Shown one piece after another: positions 6,058 to 23,273 of a stretch of 32,000 bases of DNA. Where the stretch lies: assembly GCA_965227835.1 (NCBI GenBank), contig OZ245768.1, positions 1,020,001-1,052,000 on the forward strand, given 5' to 3'. Every line of letters begins with the position of its first letter. Within the stretch, counting starts at the first letter, position 1. The notes under the pieces are model-generated. The model had not been told where the DNA came from, ran no database searches, and saw only the letters and a program-made list of their open reading frames with translations. This DNA comes from Candidatus Saccharimonadota bacterium. GTDB lineage: Bacteria > Patescibacteriota > Gracilibacteria > BD1-5 > UBA6164. The position numbers were made by a program, and so were the translations under genes.

Positions 6058-6495
6058 AAAAAAATTTGTTATAAATTAAAAAAATTAATTTATAAAAATA
6101 TTCAATTAATTCTATATATTTCTAGTATAAAATAATAGATAAATTACGAAAAATGTATTTGAATTAGTTGTATAAAACTAGTTTTTTGATTTTAGTTTAT
6201 AGACTTTTTTTGTCTTTGTTTAAAACTAGTTTTTATAAGTTTTAAATATTTTATAAATATCTTGTCTCCTTAAGAAAAAGCTATTAATATGTTAATTTTT
6301 AAAGCTTTCCATTAAATGCTTTTATATAAGTTTAAAAAGTTAATTCTAAATTCTAATCCTTTAATTATCAAAATAATTTTTTCTAAAAAAATATTTAACT
6401 TTCAAAAATTTCTAAAGCGATTTTTATATTAATGATTAGACAGAAAAAATCAAAAAAACTTTTATTTTTAAAAAAACAAAAGTTTAAAAAGACAA

Positions 6496-6519
6496 AGAGG
6501 CAGGTTTTAACCTGCCTCT
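6496..6519 (-). terminator. Intrinsic terminator, cassette A
   Basis: AGAGGCAGGT (6496-6505) pairs with ACCTGCCTCT (6510-6519), followed on the minus strand by TTGTCTTTTTAAACTTTTGTTTTTTT. The hairpin is identical to the one at 7054-7077. Confidence 0.8.
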
Positions 6520-6590
6520 CTTATTTAAGGATTATTAGCTCACAATGGCTTCATTATACTTCAACGAAGCTTGACAGCAACAACTTAGAT

Positions 6591-6845
6591 TTATTTCTCC
6601 CTGAAGTTACATTTACGAAAACAAAGAGCTTTCACTTCCGCTTCCAGCTTAAGAATATCCAACTTGTGCTGTTTCAATCTGAGCTGGTTCAGTCTGACAT
6701 GTTTAAGGGCAAGTTCTAGTTTAGCAATTTGACCTTGAACAGACTCCACAGATGTAGAATTTAGTTCATGCAAGTTAGATTCGGAGGCACAAACAGAACC
6801 AATGGATAATAATCCAAAAATAATTGCAATAAACATTTTTCCCAT
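6591..6845 (-). CDS. Small secreted coiled-coil protein (cassette A), TGA-free
   Basis: 84 aa, open in the standard code and ending in TAA. It has a signal-peptide-like N-terminus (MGKMFIAIIFGLLSIGSVCA|SE) and a strong RBS (AAAGGAGTAAGAT-ATG). The N-terminus is homologous to the 7083..7646 product. Confidence 0.7.
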   Translation of the reverse strand: MGKMFIAIIFGLLSIGSVCASESNLHELNSTSVESVQGQIAKLELALKHVRLNQLRLKQHKLDILKLEAEVKALCFRKCNFREK

Positions 6846-6989
6846 ATCTTACTCCTTTATAAAAATTGAATGGAAAATATAAAAACTTCATTCTATGCAA
6901 AACAAAACTTGTAATACAAAGAAGAAAACAACTTAGTTTTTGAATATAATTTAAATTTGAAAACTTAAATAATTCTAAAACTTGTTCGC

Positions 6990-7017
6990 ATTATAAACAT
7001 AAAAAATATTTTGTCAA
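6990..7017 (-). promoter_or_regulatory. Sigma70-like promoter of cassette A
   Basis: On the minus strand, TTGACA (7017-7012), a 16-nt spacer, then TATAAT (6995-6990). This predicts a 5'UTR of about 135 nt. Confidence 0.65.
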
Positions 7018-7053
7018 AAAATTTTTTAGATTTTTGAGTTTTTAAAAAGATAA

Positions 7054-7077
7054 AGAGGCAGGTTTTAACCTGCCTCT
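7054..7077 (-). terminator. Intrinsic terminator, cassette B
   Basis: Same hairpin, AGAGGCAGGT-TTTA-ACCTGCCTCT, placed 5 nt after the stop at 7083-7085. A T-rich tract follows on the minus strand. Confidence 0.8.
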
Positions 7078-7082
7078 TTTGC

Positions 7083-7646
7083 TTAAGGATGATTAGCCTT
7101 CAATTCGTCCAAAGATAAACATTTAATCTTAACAGCAATTACTTGTTCTCTCCCTTTTCGAGTATAATTCCTAACTTCCAAAATTTCGCATATATCTTCT
7201 TTATTTATGTAATCTTCACCTGATTTGTTATCGGCTAAAAAATCCCAATATGAAGAATAAATATTCACCTTATAATCTGATTTACTGATTGGTGAATATT
7301 GAACTATATCTCCTTTAAACGGGTAAACACCAAGCTTATACCTATATGGATAAATAGAAGTATTATGATATACATTTGAATATAAATCAATATTATCAAT
7401 GCTAGAAGATTCTTTTAACATTTTAAAATATGTACTATCTTCTATCCAAAACATTGCTCTATCAACACCTACACTTGCTGTAAAACTTCTCGAGGCATAC
7501 TCTACCCAAAAGCCCCCAGAATTATCTTCTTCAAAATTTGATTGAAAAGATTCATCCGCAGCATTTGAATAAAATGAATTGATTTCAAAAGCATGAACAG
7601 AATTAATGTATAATAATCCAAAAAGTAACATAAATATTTTTCCCAT
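7083..7646 (-). CDS. Secreted protein (cassette B), TGA-free
   Basis: 187 aa, open in the standard code and ending in TAA. The signal peptide is MGKIFMLLFGLLYINSVHA|FE. All 9 Gly codons are GGN and none is TGA. The RBS AAAGGAGTAAGAT-ATG is identical to cassette A. Confidence 0.75.
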   Translation of the reverse strand: MGKIFMLLFGLLYINSVHAFEINSFYSNAADESFQSNFEEDNSGGFWVEYASRSFTASVGVDRAMFWIEDSTYFKMLKESSSIDNIDLYSNVYHNTSIYPYRYKLGVYPFKGDIVQYSPISKSDYKVNIYSSYWDFLADNKSGEDYINKEDICEILEVRNYTRKGREQVIAVKIKCLSLDELKANHP

Positions 7647-7788
7647 ATCTTACTCCTTTATAAAAATTGAATGGAAAATATAAAAACTTCATTCTATGCA
7701 AAACAAAACTTGTAATACAAAGAAGAAAACACCTTAGTTTTTGAATATAATTTAAATTTAAAAACTTAAATATTCTAAAACTTTTTAC

Positions 7789-7816
7789 ATTATATATATA
7801 AAAAATATTTTGTCAA
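7789..7816 (-). promoter_or_regulatory. Sigma70-like promoter of cassette B
   Basis: On the minus strand, TTGACA (7816-7811), a 16-nt spacer, then TATAAT (7794-7789). It lies inside the duplicated block of about 195 bp. Confidence 0.65.
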
Positions 7817-7932
7817 AAAATTTATCTCAAAACTCCCGAGTTTTTATGCTTTATAGTTTATTTTTTACCTTTATATAAGTAAAAACAGAGTTTTTATATT
7901 GATTAAATTTTATAAAGATAAAATTAGTTTAA

Positions 7933-9136
7933 GGGTCTGTTGCGTTTTGATTTTAAAAAGAGTTTTAATTAAGAAAAGTACTAAATAGATGAAAGATTTA
8001 TAAAATTCATCTATTTTTTGTTAAATTATAGCCATTTTTATATATAATTTAGGATTTTAGACAAAATCCACCTAAGGAAACTAATCTAAGCTATTGGGAT
8101 TTCCTCTAATACAACCAATCTTTTGAGATTAAAAGATATAGCTTCCATAAATGCAGTAAACTGGTTTTTTACTACAGATTTATATCTCACTCTATGATTC
8201 ATTTTTGAAAATACTCTCTCATAAGGAGATCTAAGTTTAGAATAAAATCTATCTTTATCCTTATCCTTCTCTTTCATATTATTCTTCTTTATTGCACATA
8301 AATGTAATCACTTCTTTTTTGATGATAATATAGCTGGTCAAATACAATATCACTTATCAGCATATACTGCTCATGAATTTGGTAATACATGTTTCATTCA
8401 CTTTGCATCTGTTACATTAGCTTGAGTTATAGCTATCTTGTTTATCATTCAAGATTGCATATCAACACTAGCGTGTTTTTTATATCCATACCAAAATTTA
8501 TTTTTTCACTTAGATCAAATTTTAGCTTCCTTATCATTAGCAACTTTTGGAAGAGTTTCATTATTCATTTTTTCATATCATTCTTTTATTCATTTATCTC
8601 TTTCTTCCCATAAATTAGCTTTAGTAACTAAATGAGAAGCATCTACAAATGTAAACACTTCACTCATATACCCCTTATTTGATAATTGATTTTTTAAATC
8701 TTCAAATATCTTTGATAGTTCATTTGTTCATATCTTTTTTCTTGCTCTTGAGAATATACTATAATCTGGAGTTTTATCTGTTAATTTAAATCAGCAAAAC
8801 CATTTACCAGCTAAATTTTCTGCAAGATATTTCTCTAACTCTCTATCTGATAGATCTTCCATAAACTGGATTAGTAAACATAGAAATAATTTTTTTACTC
8901 AATATCATACATGAGTTTTTCATAGATCTATATTTTTTAGTATTTTATTTACTCAATCAAAGTTCCACAATTTCTTAAATTTACGATATTGATGATTTTC
9001 TGGAATTAGCTCGTTTAGGATAACAAAACTTATTTGATTTGATTCTCACATAGGTATTTTCTTAGAATATAATTACTATCTAATTATATCTCTTTTTTCT
9101 CTTTTTAATAGCTAAAATCTAATTTGCAACAGACCC
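7933..9136 (-). mobile_element. IS5-family insertion sequence (1204 bp), intact
   Basis: The terminal inverted repeats are GGGTCTGTTGC (7933-7943) and GCAACAGACCC (9126-9136). A direct TTTAA duplication flanks the element (7928-7932 and 9137-9141). It encodes one DDE transposase. Confidence 0.85.
8086..9051 (-). CDS. IS5-family DDE transposase (DUF772 N-terminal domain plus DDE_Tnp_1-like domain)
   Basis: 321 aa, checked block by block, with more than 20 in-frame TGA = Gly. The motifs are LFLCLLIQFMEDLSDRELEKYLAENLAGKWFCGFKL..PDYSIFSRARKKIG, then D (FVDASHL), D (VYADKGY) and E (RSPYERVFSKMN). The track ORF 8086..8277 is its C-terminus. Confidence 0.88.
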
Positions 9137-10560: not shown

Positions 10561-10749
10561 TTTAAATTTTTATTAAATTAATTTTAAAGTATTTTTCTTT
10601 AATAGTTTTATGTATATTTCCTAAGTAAAGGCTGAAGAATTCTTTAATTCCTATAAAATAATAAATTTTTTACATTATTATACTTTTTTATAATACTTAT
10701 TTTATTCTATCACATAATCTATTCCTTCTTATTATATTCTTGTTCTATT

Positions 10750-10870
10750 CCCTCTCCTCCAAAGGAGAGGGTTAGGGTGAGGTCTTATCCAGAGAGGGTG
10801 AGGTTCTTACCCAGAGAGAGTGAGGTCTTGCCGAAGAAGGTTAGATTAATTTGAGCTAAGGTAAGATCTG
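10750..10870. repeat. GC-rich hairpin plus about 3 tandem 22-nt repeats in the rplO-secY spacer
   Basis: The hairpin is CCCTCTCC-TCCAAA-GGAGAGGG (10750-10771). It is followed by GGGTGAGGTCTTATCCAGAGA, GGGTGAGGTTCTTACCCAGAGA and GAGTGAGGTCTTGCCGAAGA. GC content stands out sharply from the surrounding AT-rich DNA. Confidence 0.6.
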
Positions 10871-10980
10871 CTATTATAATAGTGGGATATAAGATTTATT
10901 TCAATAGTATACTAAAAAATTAACATTCTGCAGAAAAAATAATATTTTTTGTTAATTTTCACCAGAAAAATTTTTTACTT

Positions 10981-11015
10981 AGCAAAAATAAAAAACAAGG
11001 CTTATTTTCAAGCCT
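10981..11015 (-). terminator. Intrinsic terminator after rplO
   Basis: On the minus strand, AGGCTT-gaaaat-AAGCCT overlaps the rplO stop and is followed by TGTTTTTTATTTTTGC. Confidence 0.6.
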
Positions 11016-19999: not shown

Positions 20000-20239
20000 T
20001 TTAAAAAATGATTACAAATTAAAGTTAGAGGTTAAACTTTTCTAAATTTTTTTAGATAGTTTAACTTAACCTCTTCTTAGAATAAACTTTTCAAAAAAAT
20101 GATGTTTTTCAAAAAAAGCTTTAGCAAGGATTATATAAAAATTATATTAAATGCAAATTTTTTTATTATCAAGTGTATTTTTAGGGTTTTATAAGGTCGT
20201 AAATTTAGGAAAAGTAGGAAATTATTTTAGATTTTATAC

Positions 20240-20512
20240 AAAAAAAGCCCCCCATCGAGGGGGGCAAGACACGAATATAGATTCGTGTGCAAACCTACAA
20301 CATTTAAACTGTCGATGTTAGAGTATTCAGCACGTTAAGCTGTTAAGATTTGACTTTTGACTGTTTTAAAAATAAAGAAACAGTCTCGTACTTAAACATA
20401 TGCCTATGAATAATTTATTCATCCTCAAACATTATATTGACACATCAAAAATAATTAAATTCTTGATATTAAGTGCGTCTCAAGTTGTTTTACAATTTCG
20501 AATCGAACAACT
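20240..20512 (-). ncRNA. Unclassified structured RNA, paralog A (about 270 nt)
   Basis: It lies between its own promoter (20519-20546) and a GC-rich intrinsic terminator: GCCCCCC-ATCGA-GGGGGGC at 20247-20265 plus a U7 run. Several internal hairpins are visible, for example ACACGAAT/ATTCGTGT, GACTGTTT/AAACAGTC and AGTTGTT/AACAACT. No ORF is conserved with paralog B. Confidence 0.6.
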
Positions 20513-20518
20513 GCAAAT

Positions 20519-20546
20519 ATTATAATTTTTATATAGCTAAAGTCAA
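20519..20546 (-). promoter_or_regulatory. Sigma70-like promoter of RNA A
   Basis: On the minus strand, TTGACT (20546-20541), a 16-nt spacer, then TATAAT (20524-20519). Confidence 0.65.
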
Positions 20547-20741
20547 ATTTTTGCAGAAAAATTTTCATCATCCCTCAAAAATAGCTTTGTAAAGAGGTAA
20601 TCATTGTTTTATTCTTTGTTCTTAAAGAAATTCAAAAGCAATATTTTAATAAAAATATCTGTACTTTGTATAATTTTATTGTACAATACATTATCTGATC
20701 TTGAGTGCCTTGTTATAAAAATAAAACCATGGCATATAGTT

Positions 20742-21023
20742 AAAAAAAGAAAAACCTCGATTGTTCTGCAGAACAATCGAGGCTGGCACGGATCAAAAAT
20801 CCGTGTGCAAATCTAAAAAATTTTGGTTTCAGGTATTAGGTATGCTAAGTATTTAGATTTGACTTAAATTTGGCTACCTCAACTACTGTAGCACTAATTT
20901 ACTTAGACGATACCCGGAAATGATTTTTTTCAGATTCATCCCCAACCTTTTTCTTCAATCCCCGAACCGTTAGAATCTGAATTTCTAAATTAGGTTCGTT
21001 TGAATCGTTTTGGTTAACAATTA
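20742..21023 (-). ncRNA. Unclassified structured RNA, paralog B (about 280 nt)
   Basis: It has the same architecture as RNA A, with a promoter at 21030-21057. The terminator is CCTCGATTGTTCTG/CAGAACAATCGAGG (20755-20782) plus a U-rich run. It shares 3' motifs with RNA A: AAGTCAAATCT, TTTGCACACG and a hairpin before the terminator. Confidence 0.6.
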
Positions 21024-21029
21024 AAAGTA

Positions 21030-21057
21030 ATTATAATTTTTATATAACTAAAGTCAA
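21030..21057 (-). promoter_or_regulatory. Sigma70-like promoter of RNA B
   Basis: On the minus strand, TTGACT (21057-21052), a 16-nt spacer, then TATAAT (21035-21030). The sequence context is almost identical to the RNA A promoter. Confidence 0.65.
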
Positions 21058-21222
21058 ATTTATTACAAAAAACTTTTTTATCATCTCCAAAAATACCTTT
21101 ATAAAGCAATAATCTTTATTTTATTTTTTATTCTTGAAGACATCCAAATGCTATATTTTAATAAAAAATATCTGTACTTTGTATAATTTTATTGTACAAT
21201 ATATGTTTGTTTTTTATAAAAA

Positions 21223-23138
21223 CTAGCTAGGAGAAGTACTTACTACTTGTTCTTCATAATAGCTAGCAAGAACCTGTATTCATACATGTTCCATTCAAGC
21301 AAAAAATAATCATTGACCTACAGAGGCATTTAAAAGTATATATTTTTCTTGTTCTGTGAGTTTAAATATATTTTGAAGTGAATCTATAGAGGCACTGGAT
21401 TGCTTTAAAAGAAGTTGGATTGATGAGTTTGTAACTATAGGTTTTCAGTAAGTTGAGGCTATGAAATCTTCTATATCTTGAGTTATAGTCGTAATTCCTA
21501 GATTATATTTTCTAGCTCTTTTTACCAAACCAAAAAGAAATTTAGCAGAATCATCATGTTGCATAACATTCCAAGCTTCATCTATAACTAAAAGTCTTTT
21601 TTTAGAACTAGATCTTACCTTATTCCATATATAATTTAGTATTACATACATGGCTGTAGGTCTCATTATATCACTTAAATCTCTTACAGAAAATACTTGT
21701 AGTCACTCTTTTAAATCTATATTTGTTTCTTTACTAAAAATACCTGAAAATATTCAATTGGTATATTTTTCAAGTTTCAAAACTAAAGGGCCAGCTCAAT
21801 CCATAGTTTCTAATACATCTTGTAAGTCTTTCATTATAGGCATCTGTTTACCAGTAGCATCGTCATTTTCCATAGTAATTCATTTTAGACTATATGCAGT
21901 TATTATAGCTTTTTCCATTACAGATTCTTCAGTAGCATCAAGTTTACCAAGCATCAAATTCATAAGTCAAAGTACAGATATGACGGCAGATCTCAAAAGA
22001 TCACCAGGTTTTTCATCTCTATCTTTTAATCATAAAGGTAAATCAAAGGGATTTATTCTTTGGTTTGAGTTTAGTGATACATCCAAATAACTTCATCATA
22101 CAGTATCTATAAGAGCTTTATATTCATTTTCAGGATCTATAACTATTACATCAACTCACATCATCAAGCTTCTTAGTATTTCAAGTTTTACAGCAAAAGA
22201 TTTACCTCAACCAGATTTAGCAAATACACACATATTTGCATTTTCACTTTTAAATCTATCAAAAAGTATCAAAGAGTTGTTGTGTGTATTTACTCAATAC
22301 AATATACCGTCATCATGTGAAAGTGTAGAACTTGAAAATGGGAAAGTAGTTGAAATACCTCATGTAGACATATTTCTGTATACTCAAATTTCATCTTTGG
22401 CAAAAGGTCAGGTTGAAACAAAACCTTGCATACTTCTAAGGTAAGCTTGTTTTTGTAATACATTTCTTCCAGAAAGTATGGTTTCTATATTTTTCAAATT
22501 TTATCTAGTTGATCTAAAGAATCAGAATATATGGTTATATATATTGATAGGTGAAAATATTTTTCTTCTCATCTAGTAAGTTTGTGTCTAAGTTCTTCTA
22601 CATCTTGGATTTGGGCATCTATGGCAGGATCATTTATCAATCATTTATCTGCATTCATACTTCTTTCAGAATTTAGCTGAACCAGTCTTTTTTTTAGGAA
22701 TTTTTGGACAAATGCTGAATCAATAGGATATGTAAAAAGACTCATATCAAATTTTACATCTAGGTTTATCAGAGGAGAAAGCCAGTTTCATTCTAAAAAT
22801 GTAGGGTATGAATATACAAAAAATGTTTTTGCATATGTATTGTTTATATGAATATAGTTTGGTGCTTCTTTTAGAAAAGCTGGAGATATAGCATCTTTCA
22901 GAAAAGCTAGAGCTTCTTTATATTCTTTCTCTGTATCTAGTAGCTTTTGTTTTTCTTCTTTACTTAATTTTTCATCTGTTTTTTCAACTTTTTCTATTGT
23001 TTCTTTTGTTTTTTTTGTTTCATTTTCTTCTTTTTGTTTTTTAAGTGTATCCTTTGGTATATCTACTTCAAATCAACTTATGTCTCCAGTATATCTTTTT
23101 TTTACGAGTTCAAGCAATTTTTCGTTTTTGTTTGACAT
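21223..23138 (-). pseudogene. VirB4/TrbE/CagE-family type IV secretion ATPase, interrupted by a 1-nt frameshift near 22496-22502
   Basis: The N-terminal ORF runs from ATG 23138 to TAG 22485-22487 (217 aa). The ATPase frame opens after TAA 22501-22503 and runs to TAG 21223-21225. Walker A is FAKSGGGKSFAVK, Walker B is RLLVIDEAW, and IDPENEY, INPFDL and ITTITQDIEDF are also present. The track ORF 21445..21666 is an internal fragment. Confidence 0.8.
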
Positions 23139-23273
23139 TCTTGGCAGTTTACTAGTAAATTTTTGTTTATTTTATACTTCTATAATCCTTTGTAAAGCTT
23201 CTTAATGTTTTTTAGGTTGTCAAAAATATTAATAATTGCTTAATAGTTTTTATTTAAAGAAAATTCATTGATT

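What the first reader, a model, noticed from the sequence alone, without database searches (positions are those of the whole stretch)
20240..21235. Tandem pair of unclassified structured RNA genes of about 275 nt, each with its own promoter, terminator and about 190 bp of duplicated upstream DNA
Two units of about 495 bp sit head to tail (about 20240-20740 and 20742-21235). On the minus strand each unit contains:
- a conserved AT-rich upstream segment of about 190 bp that includes the palindrome ATTGTACAAT;
- a TTGACT-16-TATAAT promoter embedded in the near-identical string AAATTTGACTTTAG(C/T)TATATAAAAATTATAAT;
- a transcribed body of about 270-280 nt;
- a very strong GC-rich intrinsic terminator, which is exceptional in this AT-rich DNA.

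The bodies have diverged but keep shared 3' motifs (AAGTCAAATCT..., (A/G)TTTGCACACG, and a hairpin just before the terminator). They also keep hairpins at equivalent positions whose stems differ in sequence. Examples are ATGAATAA/TTATTCAT versus GATGA/TCATT, and ACACGAAT/ATTCGTGT versus CACGGAT/ATCCGTG. That pattern of structure-preserving change is expected for RNA. No ORF is conserved between the two.

I see no signatures of tmRNA, RNase P, SRP, 6S or tRNA. The pair sits between a VirB4-family gene and the main ribosomal operon. A variable 5' part with a conserved 3' scaffold resembles guide or regulatory RNA architectures, but that is speculation.
Basis: partly seen in the sequence, partly recalled or inferred. 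Interest (0 to 1): 0.8.

Follow-up and report, generated by a model that had tools for sequence, protein, structure and literature searches.

The report
Tandem array of unclassified structured RNAs
Between a secretion-ATPase gene and the main ribosomal-protein operon of a Gracilibacteria genome lie two (four in a sister strain) back-to-back genes for 275-370-nt folded RNAs of no known family, found so far in this one species and of unknown function.

Summary
On the minus strand, window 21222-20240 holds two head-to-tail units. Each has a ~190-bp AT-rich upstream module with the palindrome TATTGTACAATA, a TTGACT-16-TATAAT promoter, a ~275-nt body and a strong intrinsic terminator. The host is a code-25 Gracilibacteria genome.

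New findings:
- A strain-level variant contig (L001) carries four units, including a third body type (C, ~370 nt) whose 5' module is duplicated. Copy number therefore varies within the species.
- All three body types share a 3' domain. A covariance model built from type A alone recovers B and C.
- In that 3' domain, 9 of 20 pairs show compensatory double changes, against 3.7 in shuffles. No pair is broken in the hand alignment of six helices.
- No ORF is conserved, and the bodies are GC-enriched.
- There is no hit in Rfam, to tRNA/tmRNA, in phages, plasmids or the literature.
- Nothing was found by exact-pattern scans of three collections or by a model search of ~970 kb of related Gracilibacteria DNA.
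- The rplC promoter and leader are conserved in relatives that lack the units, so the units are not the operon's leader.

Best reading: a species-restricted family of co-regulated sibling structured sRNAs, with a conserved 3' scaffold and a fast-changing 5' module. Expression and function remain untested.

The parts
21062..21222 (-). Upstream module of unit A (AT-rich, 15% GC), with the palindrome TATTGTACAATA at 21190-21201
   Evidence: Repeat families D1-D3. 100% identical to the upstream module of unit C1 in L001. The perfect palindrome occurs only in the units. GC content.
21030..21057 (-). Promoter of unit A, TTGACT-16-TATAAT (11/12)
20742..21023 (-). RNA A (about 280 nt; ends inferred from the -10 box and the T-run). 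Elements: P1 21021-21004, P2 20998-20963, J23 20962-20944, P3 20943-20916, linker 20915-20899, Pm 20892-20873, Px 20861-20852 with 20817-20808, conserved loop block 20849-20831, Py 20805-20787.
   Evidence: Fold z = -4.6. Coordinates. Model R1 and alignment A8. 34-35% GC.
20753..20784 (-). Intrinsic terminator of RNA A (14-bp stem, followed by TTTCTTTTTTT)
20551..20741 (-). Upstream module of unit B, with the palindrome TATTGTACAATA at 20677-20688
20519..20546 (-). Promoter of unit B, TTGACT-16-TATAAT (11/12)
20240..20512 (-). RNA B (about 273 nt). Elements: P1 20512-20483, P2 20479-20439, J23 20438-20423, P3 20422-20406, linker 20405-20388, Pm 20385-20359, Px 20352-20341 with 20302-20290, conserved loop block 20339-20320, Py 20287-20270.
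   Evidence: Fold z = -5.4. Coordinates. Recovered by the A-only model at 30.1 bits, E = 2e-4. 100% identical in strain L001.
20247..20265 (-). Intrinsic terminator of RNA B (7 G-C pairs, followed by TTTTTTT)

Best explanation
What it is: the region is a tandem array of paralogous ('sibling') genes for structured non-coding RNAs of a previously undescribed family.

How each unit is built:
- Each unit is its own transcription unit.
- A shared ~190-bp upstream control module carries a 12-bp palindrome about 150 bp upstream of the start. This is presumably the site of a dimeric regulator.
- That module feeds a near-consensus sigma-70-type promoter.
- The transcript is 275-370 nt and ends at a strong intrinsic terminator.

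How the RNA is built:
- 5' module: three hairpins (P1-P2-P3). It varies between paralogs, diverges fast between strains and is duplicated in type C.
- Conserved linker: GCAUnUGUUUAAGUAC.
- Conserved 3' domain: a 10-12-bp helix Px closes a loop with a conserved ~20-nt block (CUYARCRU...AAUAsCU), followed by hairpin Py and the terminator.

Array dynamics: unequal recombination between the nearly identical upstream modules changes the copy number, giving 2 units here and 4 in a sister strain.

Inferred mechanism (not shown): the RNAs are abundant, co-regulated and act in trans. The constant 3' domain would serve as a common scaffold, most likely a protein-binding or stabilising platform. The variable 5' module would give each paralog a different specificity.

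Shown versus inferred: sequence signals, shared fold, covariation, absence of coding potential and copy-number polymorphism are shown. Transcription itself, trans action, the regulator and any partner are inferred.
For: - Units, promoters and terminators are confirmed and rare in the window.
- UGA falls at conserved glycine positions, so the host uses code 25. With that code no ORF is conserved in any frame.
- The bodies fold well below their shuffles: z = -4.6, -5.4 and -4.4.
- The bodies are 30-35% GC. Coding DNA is 27.8%, other intergenic regions are 14-26% and the upstream modules are 15-22%.
- Strain contig L001 is 97-100% identical in the flanks and has four units, C-C-A-B. The upstream module of the window's unit A is 100% identical to that of L001 unit C1.
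- A covariance model built from A/A' only recovers B (30.1 bits, E = 2e-4) and both C copies (23.4 bits, E = 5e-3) in the expected register.
- On the model-made alignment of A, A', B and C, 97.5% of cells are paired. Nine of 20 pairs changed on both sides, against 3.7 +/- 1.3 in shuffles (0 of 500 reach the observed value) and 0-2 when partners are slid.
- RNAalifold independently predicts Px and Py.
- The hand alignment of six helices gives 21 of 39 pairs compensatory and none broken. About ten G-U cells favour the minus strand.
- Folded on their own, three of the five 5' modules give the same three-hairpin layout.
- Fifteen of the strain differences lie in the 140 nt from the promoter spacer to the end of A's 5' module. 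That is 10.7%, against 0-2.8% elsewhere (p = 4e-7).
- The rplC promoter and leader hairpin are conserved in relatives that lack the units.
Against: - There are no expression data of any kind.
- The family was found only in one species: two contigs and three paralog types. All covariation therefore comes from four distinct sequences related by duplication, and the statistical power is limited.
- Helix registers for P2-inner and P3 were chosen by eye. Most single 5' modules fold only modestly better than shuffles (z -0.9 to -2.0, one copy -5.3).
- No partner protein, regulator gene or target was identified.
- Restriction to one species and copy-number variation are also what one expects of young, possibly dispensable DNA.
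- Upstream modules that are better conserved than the bodies could reflect gene conversion instead of regulatory constraint.
Confidence: 0.5

Rival explanations
1. Cis-acting leaders. The units would be attenuator or leader RNAs of the downstream ribosomal-protein operon, like the L4-controlled S10 leader. Alternatively they would be stacked strong promoters whose read-through boosts operon transcription.
For: - They have the same orientation as rplC and lie immediately upstream of it.
- Each body ends in a terminator, as attenuators do.
- rpsJ is absent upstream of rplC, so the operon starts here.
Against: - A separate promoter and a leader hairpin lie between unit B's terminator and rplC. 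These are conserved in relatives L002-L004, which have no units.
- The terminators are among the strongest in the window, with no alternative anti-terminator seen.
- Unit number differs between strains (2 vs 4) while the operon is 100% identical.
- Units A and C are followed by another unit, not by a gene.
Confidence: 0.08
2. Small-protein or type I toxin mRNAs. Each unit would encode a tiny peptide, for example MNKLFIGICLSTRLFLYF in B, and the RNA structure would control its translation.
For: - Short ORFs start at the conserved GGAUGAAU of P3 in A (14 aa) and B (18 aa, hydrophobic) (reading).
- Type I toxin loci are often tandemly duplicated and highly structured (background knowledge).
- A promoter-like site on the opposite strand recurs in each upstream module.
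Against: - The peptides differ in length and sequence: A 14 aa and not hydrophobic, B 18 aa, C about 9 aa or none. None is conserved in any frame.
- The conserved parts of the RNAs (Px, loop block, Py) lie downstream of these ORFs.
- The ATG lies inside a helix and has no upstream Shine-Dalgarno spacing.
- The opposite-strand promoter match is only 10/12 in DNA where such matches are at chance level.
Confidence: 0.07
3. Young, functionless duplicated DNA. The units would be promoter-terminator cassettes left from decayed gene cassettes or spread by recombination, with the apparent structure being incidental.
For: - The units are found in only one species despite broad searches.
- Copy number varies between strains.
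- The same window has a second tandem duplication (6483-7820) with the same 'conserved ends, divergent middle' design around protein genes.
- The array sits at a species-specific rearrangement next to a split VirB4 gene.
Against: - Nine to 21 compensatory double substitutions with no broken pairs are hard to obtain without selection on RNA pairing.
- The bodies are GC-enriched relative to all other spacers.
- Near-consensus promoters and perfect terminators are retained in every copy.
- No remnant of coding sequence is detectable.
Confidence: 0.12
4. Protein-sequestering RNAs of the 6S or CsrB type. The RNAs would titrate RNA polymerase/sigma factor or a global RNA-binding protein and would not base-pair with targets.
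For: - Size, predicted abundance and multi-hairpin build fit such RNAs.
- Bodies A and B contain the exact reverse complement (AAGUCAAAU) of their own -35 region ATTTGACTT. This 9-mer occurs nowhere else in the window.
- No antisense target signal was found.
- An upstream palindrome far from the promoter recalls the activating sites of csrB/rsm genes (background knowledge).
Against: - There is no Rfam match to 6S, CsrB or Rsm families.
- The folds are not the rod with a central bubble of 6S RNA.
- Only 1-3 GGA motifs occur per RNA, mostly inside stems.
- The -35 complement is absent from type C and amounts to only two independent events. Eight of 100 shuffles reach the same count.
Confidence: 0.07

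Closest known systems
Sibling (multicopy) bacterial sRNAs encoded in tandem, e.g. PrrF1/PrrF2, OmrA/OmrB, Qrr1-5, LhrC1-5, RsmX copies (from background knowledge)
   Same: - Paralogous RNA genes lie head to tail.
- Each has its own promoter and intrinsic terminator.
- A shared upstream regulatory sequence is present.
- Some segments are conserved and others diverged.
- Copy number differs between related strains.
   Different: - Those RNAs are 50-150 nt with a simple structure and known chaperones (Hfq, CsrA). These are 275-370 nt with at least six helices and a duplicable 5' module.
- There is no sequence or Rfam similarity.
- The regulator, chaperone and targets are unknown.
- The host is a code-25 CPR bacterium.
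Large or intermediate structured ncRNAs of unknown function found by comparative genomics (raiA, ROOL, GOLLD, HEARO, OLE and others, all in Rfam)
   Same: - A GC-enriched, structured intergenic RNA in an AT-rich genome.
- Covariation-supported helices.
- No coding potential.
   Different: - No model of any of these families matches, even at E<10.
- Those families span many genera. This one is confined to a single species in all data searched.
- The fold here is mostly a string of hairpins plus one long-range helix.
S10-operon leader / ribosomal-protein autoregulatory leaders
   Same: - Located directly upstream of rplC-rplD.
- Structured, and ends in a terminator.
   Different: - The units are separated from the operon by the operon's own conserved promoter and leader hairpin.
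- They are absent from relatives.
- They are present in variable copy number.
6S RNA
   Same: Predicted to be an abundant, stable RNA of a few hundred nt made from a strong promoter. A and B contain a complement of the -35 region.
   Different: - No Rfam 6S match.
- No rod-with-bubble fold.
- Multiple divergent paralogs.
- Not conserved across species.

Membership tests
Any Rfam 15 family (4227 models) | Score at or above the family's gathering threshold | tested here: not met
   There were 0 matches in the window. At E<10 only noise appeared, 16-22 bits against thresholds of 45-160, in the window and in L001 including type C.
tRNA / tmRNA | Cloverleaf or tRNA-like domain plus tag reading frame, as detected by ARAGORN | tested here: not met
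   ARAGORN found 0 genes in the window.
6S RNA | A single extended irregular helix, closed by the 5' and 3' ends, with a large central bubble | tested here: not met
   The MFE and centroid folds are multi-hairpin. No Rfam 6S hit.
Sibling sRNAs (a functional class, not a homology family) | Two or more paralogous sRNA genes in one genome, each with its own promoter and terminator | tested here: met
   Homology of A, B and C is shown by the model search.
Sibling sRNAs (a functional class, not a homology family) | A shared upstream regulatory element | tested here: inconclusive
   The ~190-bp module and perfect palindrome are present in all six units. No regulator is known, and gene conversion could explain the identity.
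Sibling sRNAs (a functional class, not a homology family) | Trans-acting regulation of target mRNAs or proteins | not testable with these tools
   Only 32 kb of the genome is available. No target signal was seen in it.
Ribosomal-protein operon leader / attenuator | Part of the operon's 5' UTR, co-transcribed with it and conserved with the operon | tested here: not met
   The operon's own promoter and leader lie downstream of unit B's terminator, and they are conserved in relatives without units. The units are absent upstream of rplC in L002-L004.
Type I toxin-antitoxin / small-ORF mRNA | A conserved short (often hydrophobic) ORF with a translation start | tested here: not met
   No ORF is conserved between A, B and C in any frame with code 25.
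Guide RNAs of mobile or defence effectors (omega-RNA, bridge RNA, tracrRNA, retron ncRNA) | Encoded next to the effector gene (TnpB/IscB, IS110 recombinase, Cas, reverse transcriptase) | tested here: not met
   The immediate neighbours are a VirB4-like ATPase and rplC. Ten other non-ribosomal proteins of the window match only pilin N-terminal motifs, RNase Y and an IS5-type DDE transposase 11 kb away, and six of the ten have no Pfam match.

The most novel reading that the evidence does not exclude
The array would encode a new class of modular, programmable RNAs. A constant 3' scaffold (Px-loop-Py) would dock a dedicated protein. A hypervariable, duplicable three-hairpin 5' module would set the specificity. 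The repertoire would be reshuffled by recombination between identical upstream modules. In an episymbiotic or predatory CPR bacterium such an RNA-protein system could serve host interaction or defence.
Probability: 0.08. Interest if true: 0.85.

Novelty: new variant of a known kind. Interest (0 to 1): 0.45.

Why it matters
- Almost nothing is known about regulatory or structural RNAs in Gracilibacteria and other CPR bacteria. The held paper library has no report for this lineage.
- A covariation-supported RNA family of 275-370 nt is a concrete entry point into RNA biology in these reduced, uncultivated, code-25 organisms. It comes with near-consensus expression signals, a shared control module, within-species copy-number change and a fast-evolving 5' module.
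- If the RNAs are abundant, they could also serve as strain markers.
- The significance is limited by three things: the family is seen in one species only, expression is unproven, and no functional clue was found.

Tried and rejected
Homolog hunts that found nothing real:
- Genome collection scan for upstream palindrome + promoter: 38 single chance hits in unrelated taxa. L015 and L046 were checked and are coding.
- Metagenome and viral scans for AAGTCAAATCT...TTTGCACACGRAT: 0 hits.
- Viral scans for the 22-mer upstream string and for promoter + P1: 0 hits and 1 chance hit.
- BLASTN and nhmmer of whole units against 48 loci: only compositional AT-rich matches.
- Three-type covariance model over 969 kb of Gracilibacteria loci: best E = 0.69. 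With filters off on the nearest 82 kb: best E = 0.58.
- Phage and plasmid BLAST: no match.

Synteny:
- Relatives have no array next to rplC (L002-L004) or next to VirB4 (L043-L045, L047, L048).
- The 724-nt gap after VirB4 in L043 is an uncalled minus-strand ORF.

Targets:
- Short-word BLAST and duplex energies against 35 translation-initiation regions equal the shuffled background.

Technical points:
- MAFFT alone mis-registers several 3' strands, so the counted alignment was made with covariance models.
The lookup of the same-species VirB4 (P0121) found no record.
- The '92% identical' L3 hit turned out to be the same protein with UGA translated differently.

Rejected readings: 6S, tmRNA, RNase P, SRP, riboswitch or T-box (Rfam), a decayed rpsJ (no similarity in translations), CsrB-like RNA (too few GGA motifs) and guide RNA (no effector).
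Full report
**Observation.**
- Direct-repeat analysis finds blocks of 80, 48 and 47 nt at 83-92% identity, spaced 511-513 nt apart. The shorter body motifs are spaced 509-518 nt.
- A pairwise alignment gives 80% mean identity. The upstream ~190 bp and the promoter are much better conserved than the transcribed bodies.
- The 32-nt promoter string and the TTTGCACACG hairpin string each occur exactly twice in 32 kb, against zero expected.
- The consensus scan gives TTGACT-16-TATAAT (11/12) at 21057-21030 and 20546-20519. It gives terminators at 20784-20753 (14-bp stem) and 20265-20247 (seven G-C pairs), each followed by a T-run.
- Across the whole window only seven promoters reach 11/12 and only four terminators have six or more G-C pairs. 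The two units account for two of each.

**Host and context.**
- ORFs are fragmented under table 11 but continuous when UGA is read as sense.
- UGA falls at universally conserved glycines (L2 HPHGGxExH, Walker A GxGKS), so this is genetic code 25.
- L3 and VirB4 homologs are all from Gracilibacteria.
- On the minus strand the order is: a split VirB4-like ATPase gene, unit A, unit B, a separate promoter and leader hairpin, then rplC-rplD-rplW-rplB and so on to secY.

**Not a known RNA and not coding.**
- Rfam 15 gives no match at gathering thresholds in the window.
- At E<10 it gives only noise, in the window region and in the four-unit array of L001.
- ARAGORN finds no tRNA or tmRNA.
- Six-frame translation with code 25 shows no ORF shared by the units. 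The tiny ORFs that start in helix P3 differ in length and sequence between types.
- The bodies fold with z = -4.6 and -5.4.
- The bodies are 30-35% GC. Coding DNA is 27.8%, all other intergenic regions are 14-26% and the upstream modules are 15-22%. This is the classic signature of structured RNA genes in AT-rich genomes.

**A strain variant with four units.**
- Contig L001 (ENA) carries the same rplC and rplD DNA (100% identical). Its VirB4 end and its rplW-rplB segment are about 97% identical to the window's. It is therefore the same species. The reported 92% L3 identity was only the 16 UGA codons translated differently.
- Upstream of rplC it has four units, C-C-A-B.
- Type C has a ~370-nt body with a different terminator and an internal duplication of the 5' module.
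- The upstream module of the window's unit A is 100% identical to that of L001's first C unit. B is 100% identical between strains.
- The 2-versus-4 difference is therefore a within-species polymorphism. It is best explained by unequal recombination between the near-identical upstream modules.
- The strain differences are not spread evenly. Fifteen lie in the 140 nt from the promoter spacer through A's 5' module (10.7%), against 0-2.8% in the rest of the array (Fisher p = 4e-7).
- Within that patch, stem changes U.G to C-G (P1) and G.U to A-U (P3) keep pairing. Most of the other changes fall in loops.

**Shared architecture and covariation.** By inspection all types share the following elements, in order:
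- P1.
- P2, with an outer and an inner stem.
- A GGGUAAU-like junction.
- P3.
- A linker, GCAUnUGUUUAAGUAC.
- An extra hairpin, Pm, in A and B only.
- A long-range helix, Px.
- A conserved ~20-nt loop block.
- Hairpin Py.
- The terminator.

A hand alignment of six helices gives 178 of 178 cells paired, and 21 of 39 pairs carry compensatory double changes. The controls give 3.4 +/- 1.6 in column shuffles and none when partners are slid. The registers of P2-inner and P3 were chosen by eye.

To remove that bias I built a covariance model of the 3' domain from A and its strain ortholog only.
- It recovered B (30.1 bits, E = 2e-4) and both C copies (23.4 bits, E = 5e-3) in the predicted register.
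- Nothing else in the window rose above noise. The only comparable hit was the antisense of A' (A's ortholog in L001), in its own palindromic hairpins.
- After one iteration the model-made alignment of four distinct sequences has 97.5% of cells paired. Nine of 20 pairs changed on both sides, against 3.7 +/- 1.3 in shuffles (0 of 500) and 0-2 in slid controls.
- RNAalifold independently predicts Px and Py.
- Folded separately, the 5' modules of B, C-rep1 and C-rep2 give the same three hairpins. A and A' each give two of the three.
- About ten G-U cells support the minus strand as the transcribed one.

**Distribution.** I found no homolog outside this species.
- Exact-pattern scans of the genome, metagenome and viral collections returned only chance hits or nothing.
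- BLASTN and nhmmer against the loci in hand gave only compositional matches.
- Relatives have no array next to rplC or VirB4.
- I then fetched 80 further VirB4-anchored loci and searched 969 kb with the three-type model. The best E-value was 0.69, and 0.58 with filters off on the nearest 82 kb.
- Phage and plasmid collections have no match.
- The paper library has nothing on ncRNAs of this lineage.

**Relation to the ribosomal operon.**
- The ~190 nt directly upstream of rplC contains a promoter AAAAAAATTTGCATTTA...TATATAAT and a leader hairpin.
- This stretch is conserved in relatives L002-L004, which lack the units, and the apical stem of the hairpin covaries.
- The operon's control region is therefore complete without the units. 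The array is an independent insertion at a species-specific junction.

**Function.**
- No antisense target stands out in the window.
- No RNA-guided effector, reverse transcriptase or recombinase gene lies nearby.
- The palindrome TATTGTACAATA is perfect only in the units.
- My best-supported explanation is a family of co-regulated sibling sRNAs with a conserved 3' scaffold and a variable 5' specificity module, acting in trans.
- The existence of the RNA genes is well supported, at about 0.85. The mode of action is inferred, and the overall confidence is 0.5.
- The rivals are each less likely, for the reasons given in their entries. They are: a cis leader, tiny-peptide or type I toxin mRNA, functionless young duplications, and a 6S- or CsrB-like titrator.

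**Verdict.** This is a real, previously unclassified structured RNA family in a copy-number-variable tandem array. It is new as a family, but it belongs to a familiar kind of arrangement (tandem sibling sRNA genes). Interest is moderate because of the single-species distribution and the lack of functional evidence.

Noticed in passing
window 20000-20172 (minus strand); L002:160-427, L003:440-679, L004:9790-10015: The promoter and a ~50-nt leader hairpin (GAAGAGGUUAAGUUAAAC...GUUUAACCUCU) directly upstream of rplC are conserved across Gracilibacteria relatives, and the apical stem covaries. This is a candidate ribosomal-protein autoregulatory leader with no Rfam match.
   Followed up: partly
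window 21223-23171 (minus strand): The VirB4-like ATPase is split into two overlapping ORFs (22485-23171 and 21223-22500, 16-nt overlap). The same-species database protein is also only 424 aa, whereas relatives have one ORF of 610-640 aa. This points to a frameshift, a pseudogene or recoding.
   Followed up: partly
window 6483-7820 (minus strand): A second tandem duplication. Two paralogous signal-peptide protein genes (85 and 188 aa) each have a perfect TTGACA-16-TATAAT promoter, a conserved 191-nt 5' end (87% identical) and a nearly identical strong terminator around a divergent middle. This is the same cassette logic as the RNA units.
   Followed up: partly
window 20348-20356 and 20857-20865 (plus strand); 20540-20548 and 21051-21059 (minus strand): The 9-mer ATTTGACTT occurs four times in the window, all within the units. 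Two are the -35 regions and two are reverse complements inside bodies A and B (AAGUCAAAU, just 5' of helix Px). It is absent from type C, and 8 of 100 shuffles reach the same count.
   Followed up: partly
window 20012-20240; gene tables of L001, L002 and L004: No rpsJ (S10) gene precedes rplC in this genome or in its relatives. The large ribosomal-protein operon starts with rplC in this clade.
   Followed up: no
window 10570-11001: The gap between rplO and secY is 432 nt (26% GC). The same junction is about 92 nt in relative L002. The content of the extra DNA was not examined.
   Followed up: no
window 20646-20674 and 21158-21187 (plus strand); L001 306-335, 1431-1460, 1942-1970 (minus strand): A promoter-like site (TTAATA-17/18-TATAAT, 10/12) on the opposite strand recurs in the upstream modules. 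It points away from the body, towards the preceding unit's terminator. It could drive antisense transcription, but matches of this quality are at chance level in this AT-rich DNA.
   Followed up: no
window 8086-9072 (minus strand): An IS5-type DDE transposase gene (DUF772 + DDE_Tnp_1) lies just downstream of secY at the end of the ribosomal operon.
   Followed up: no
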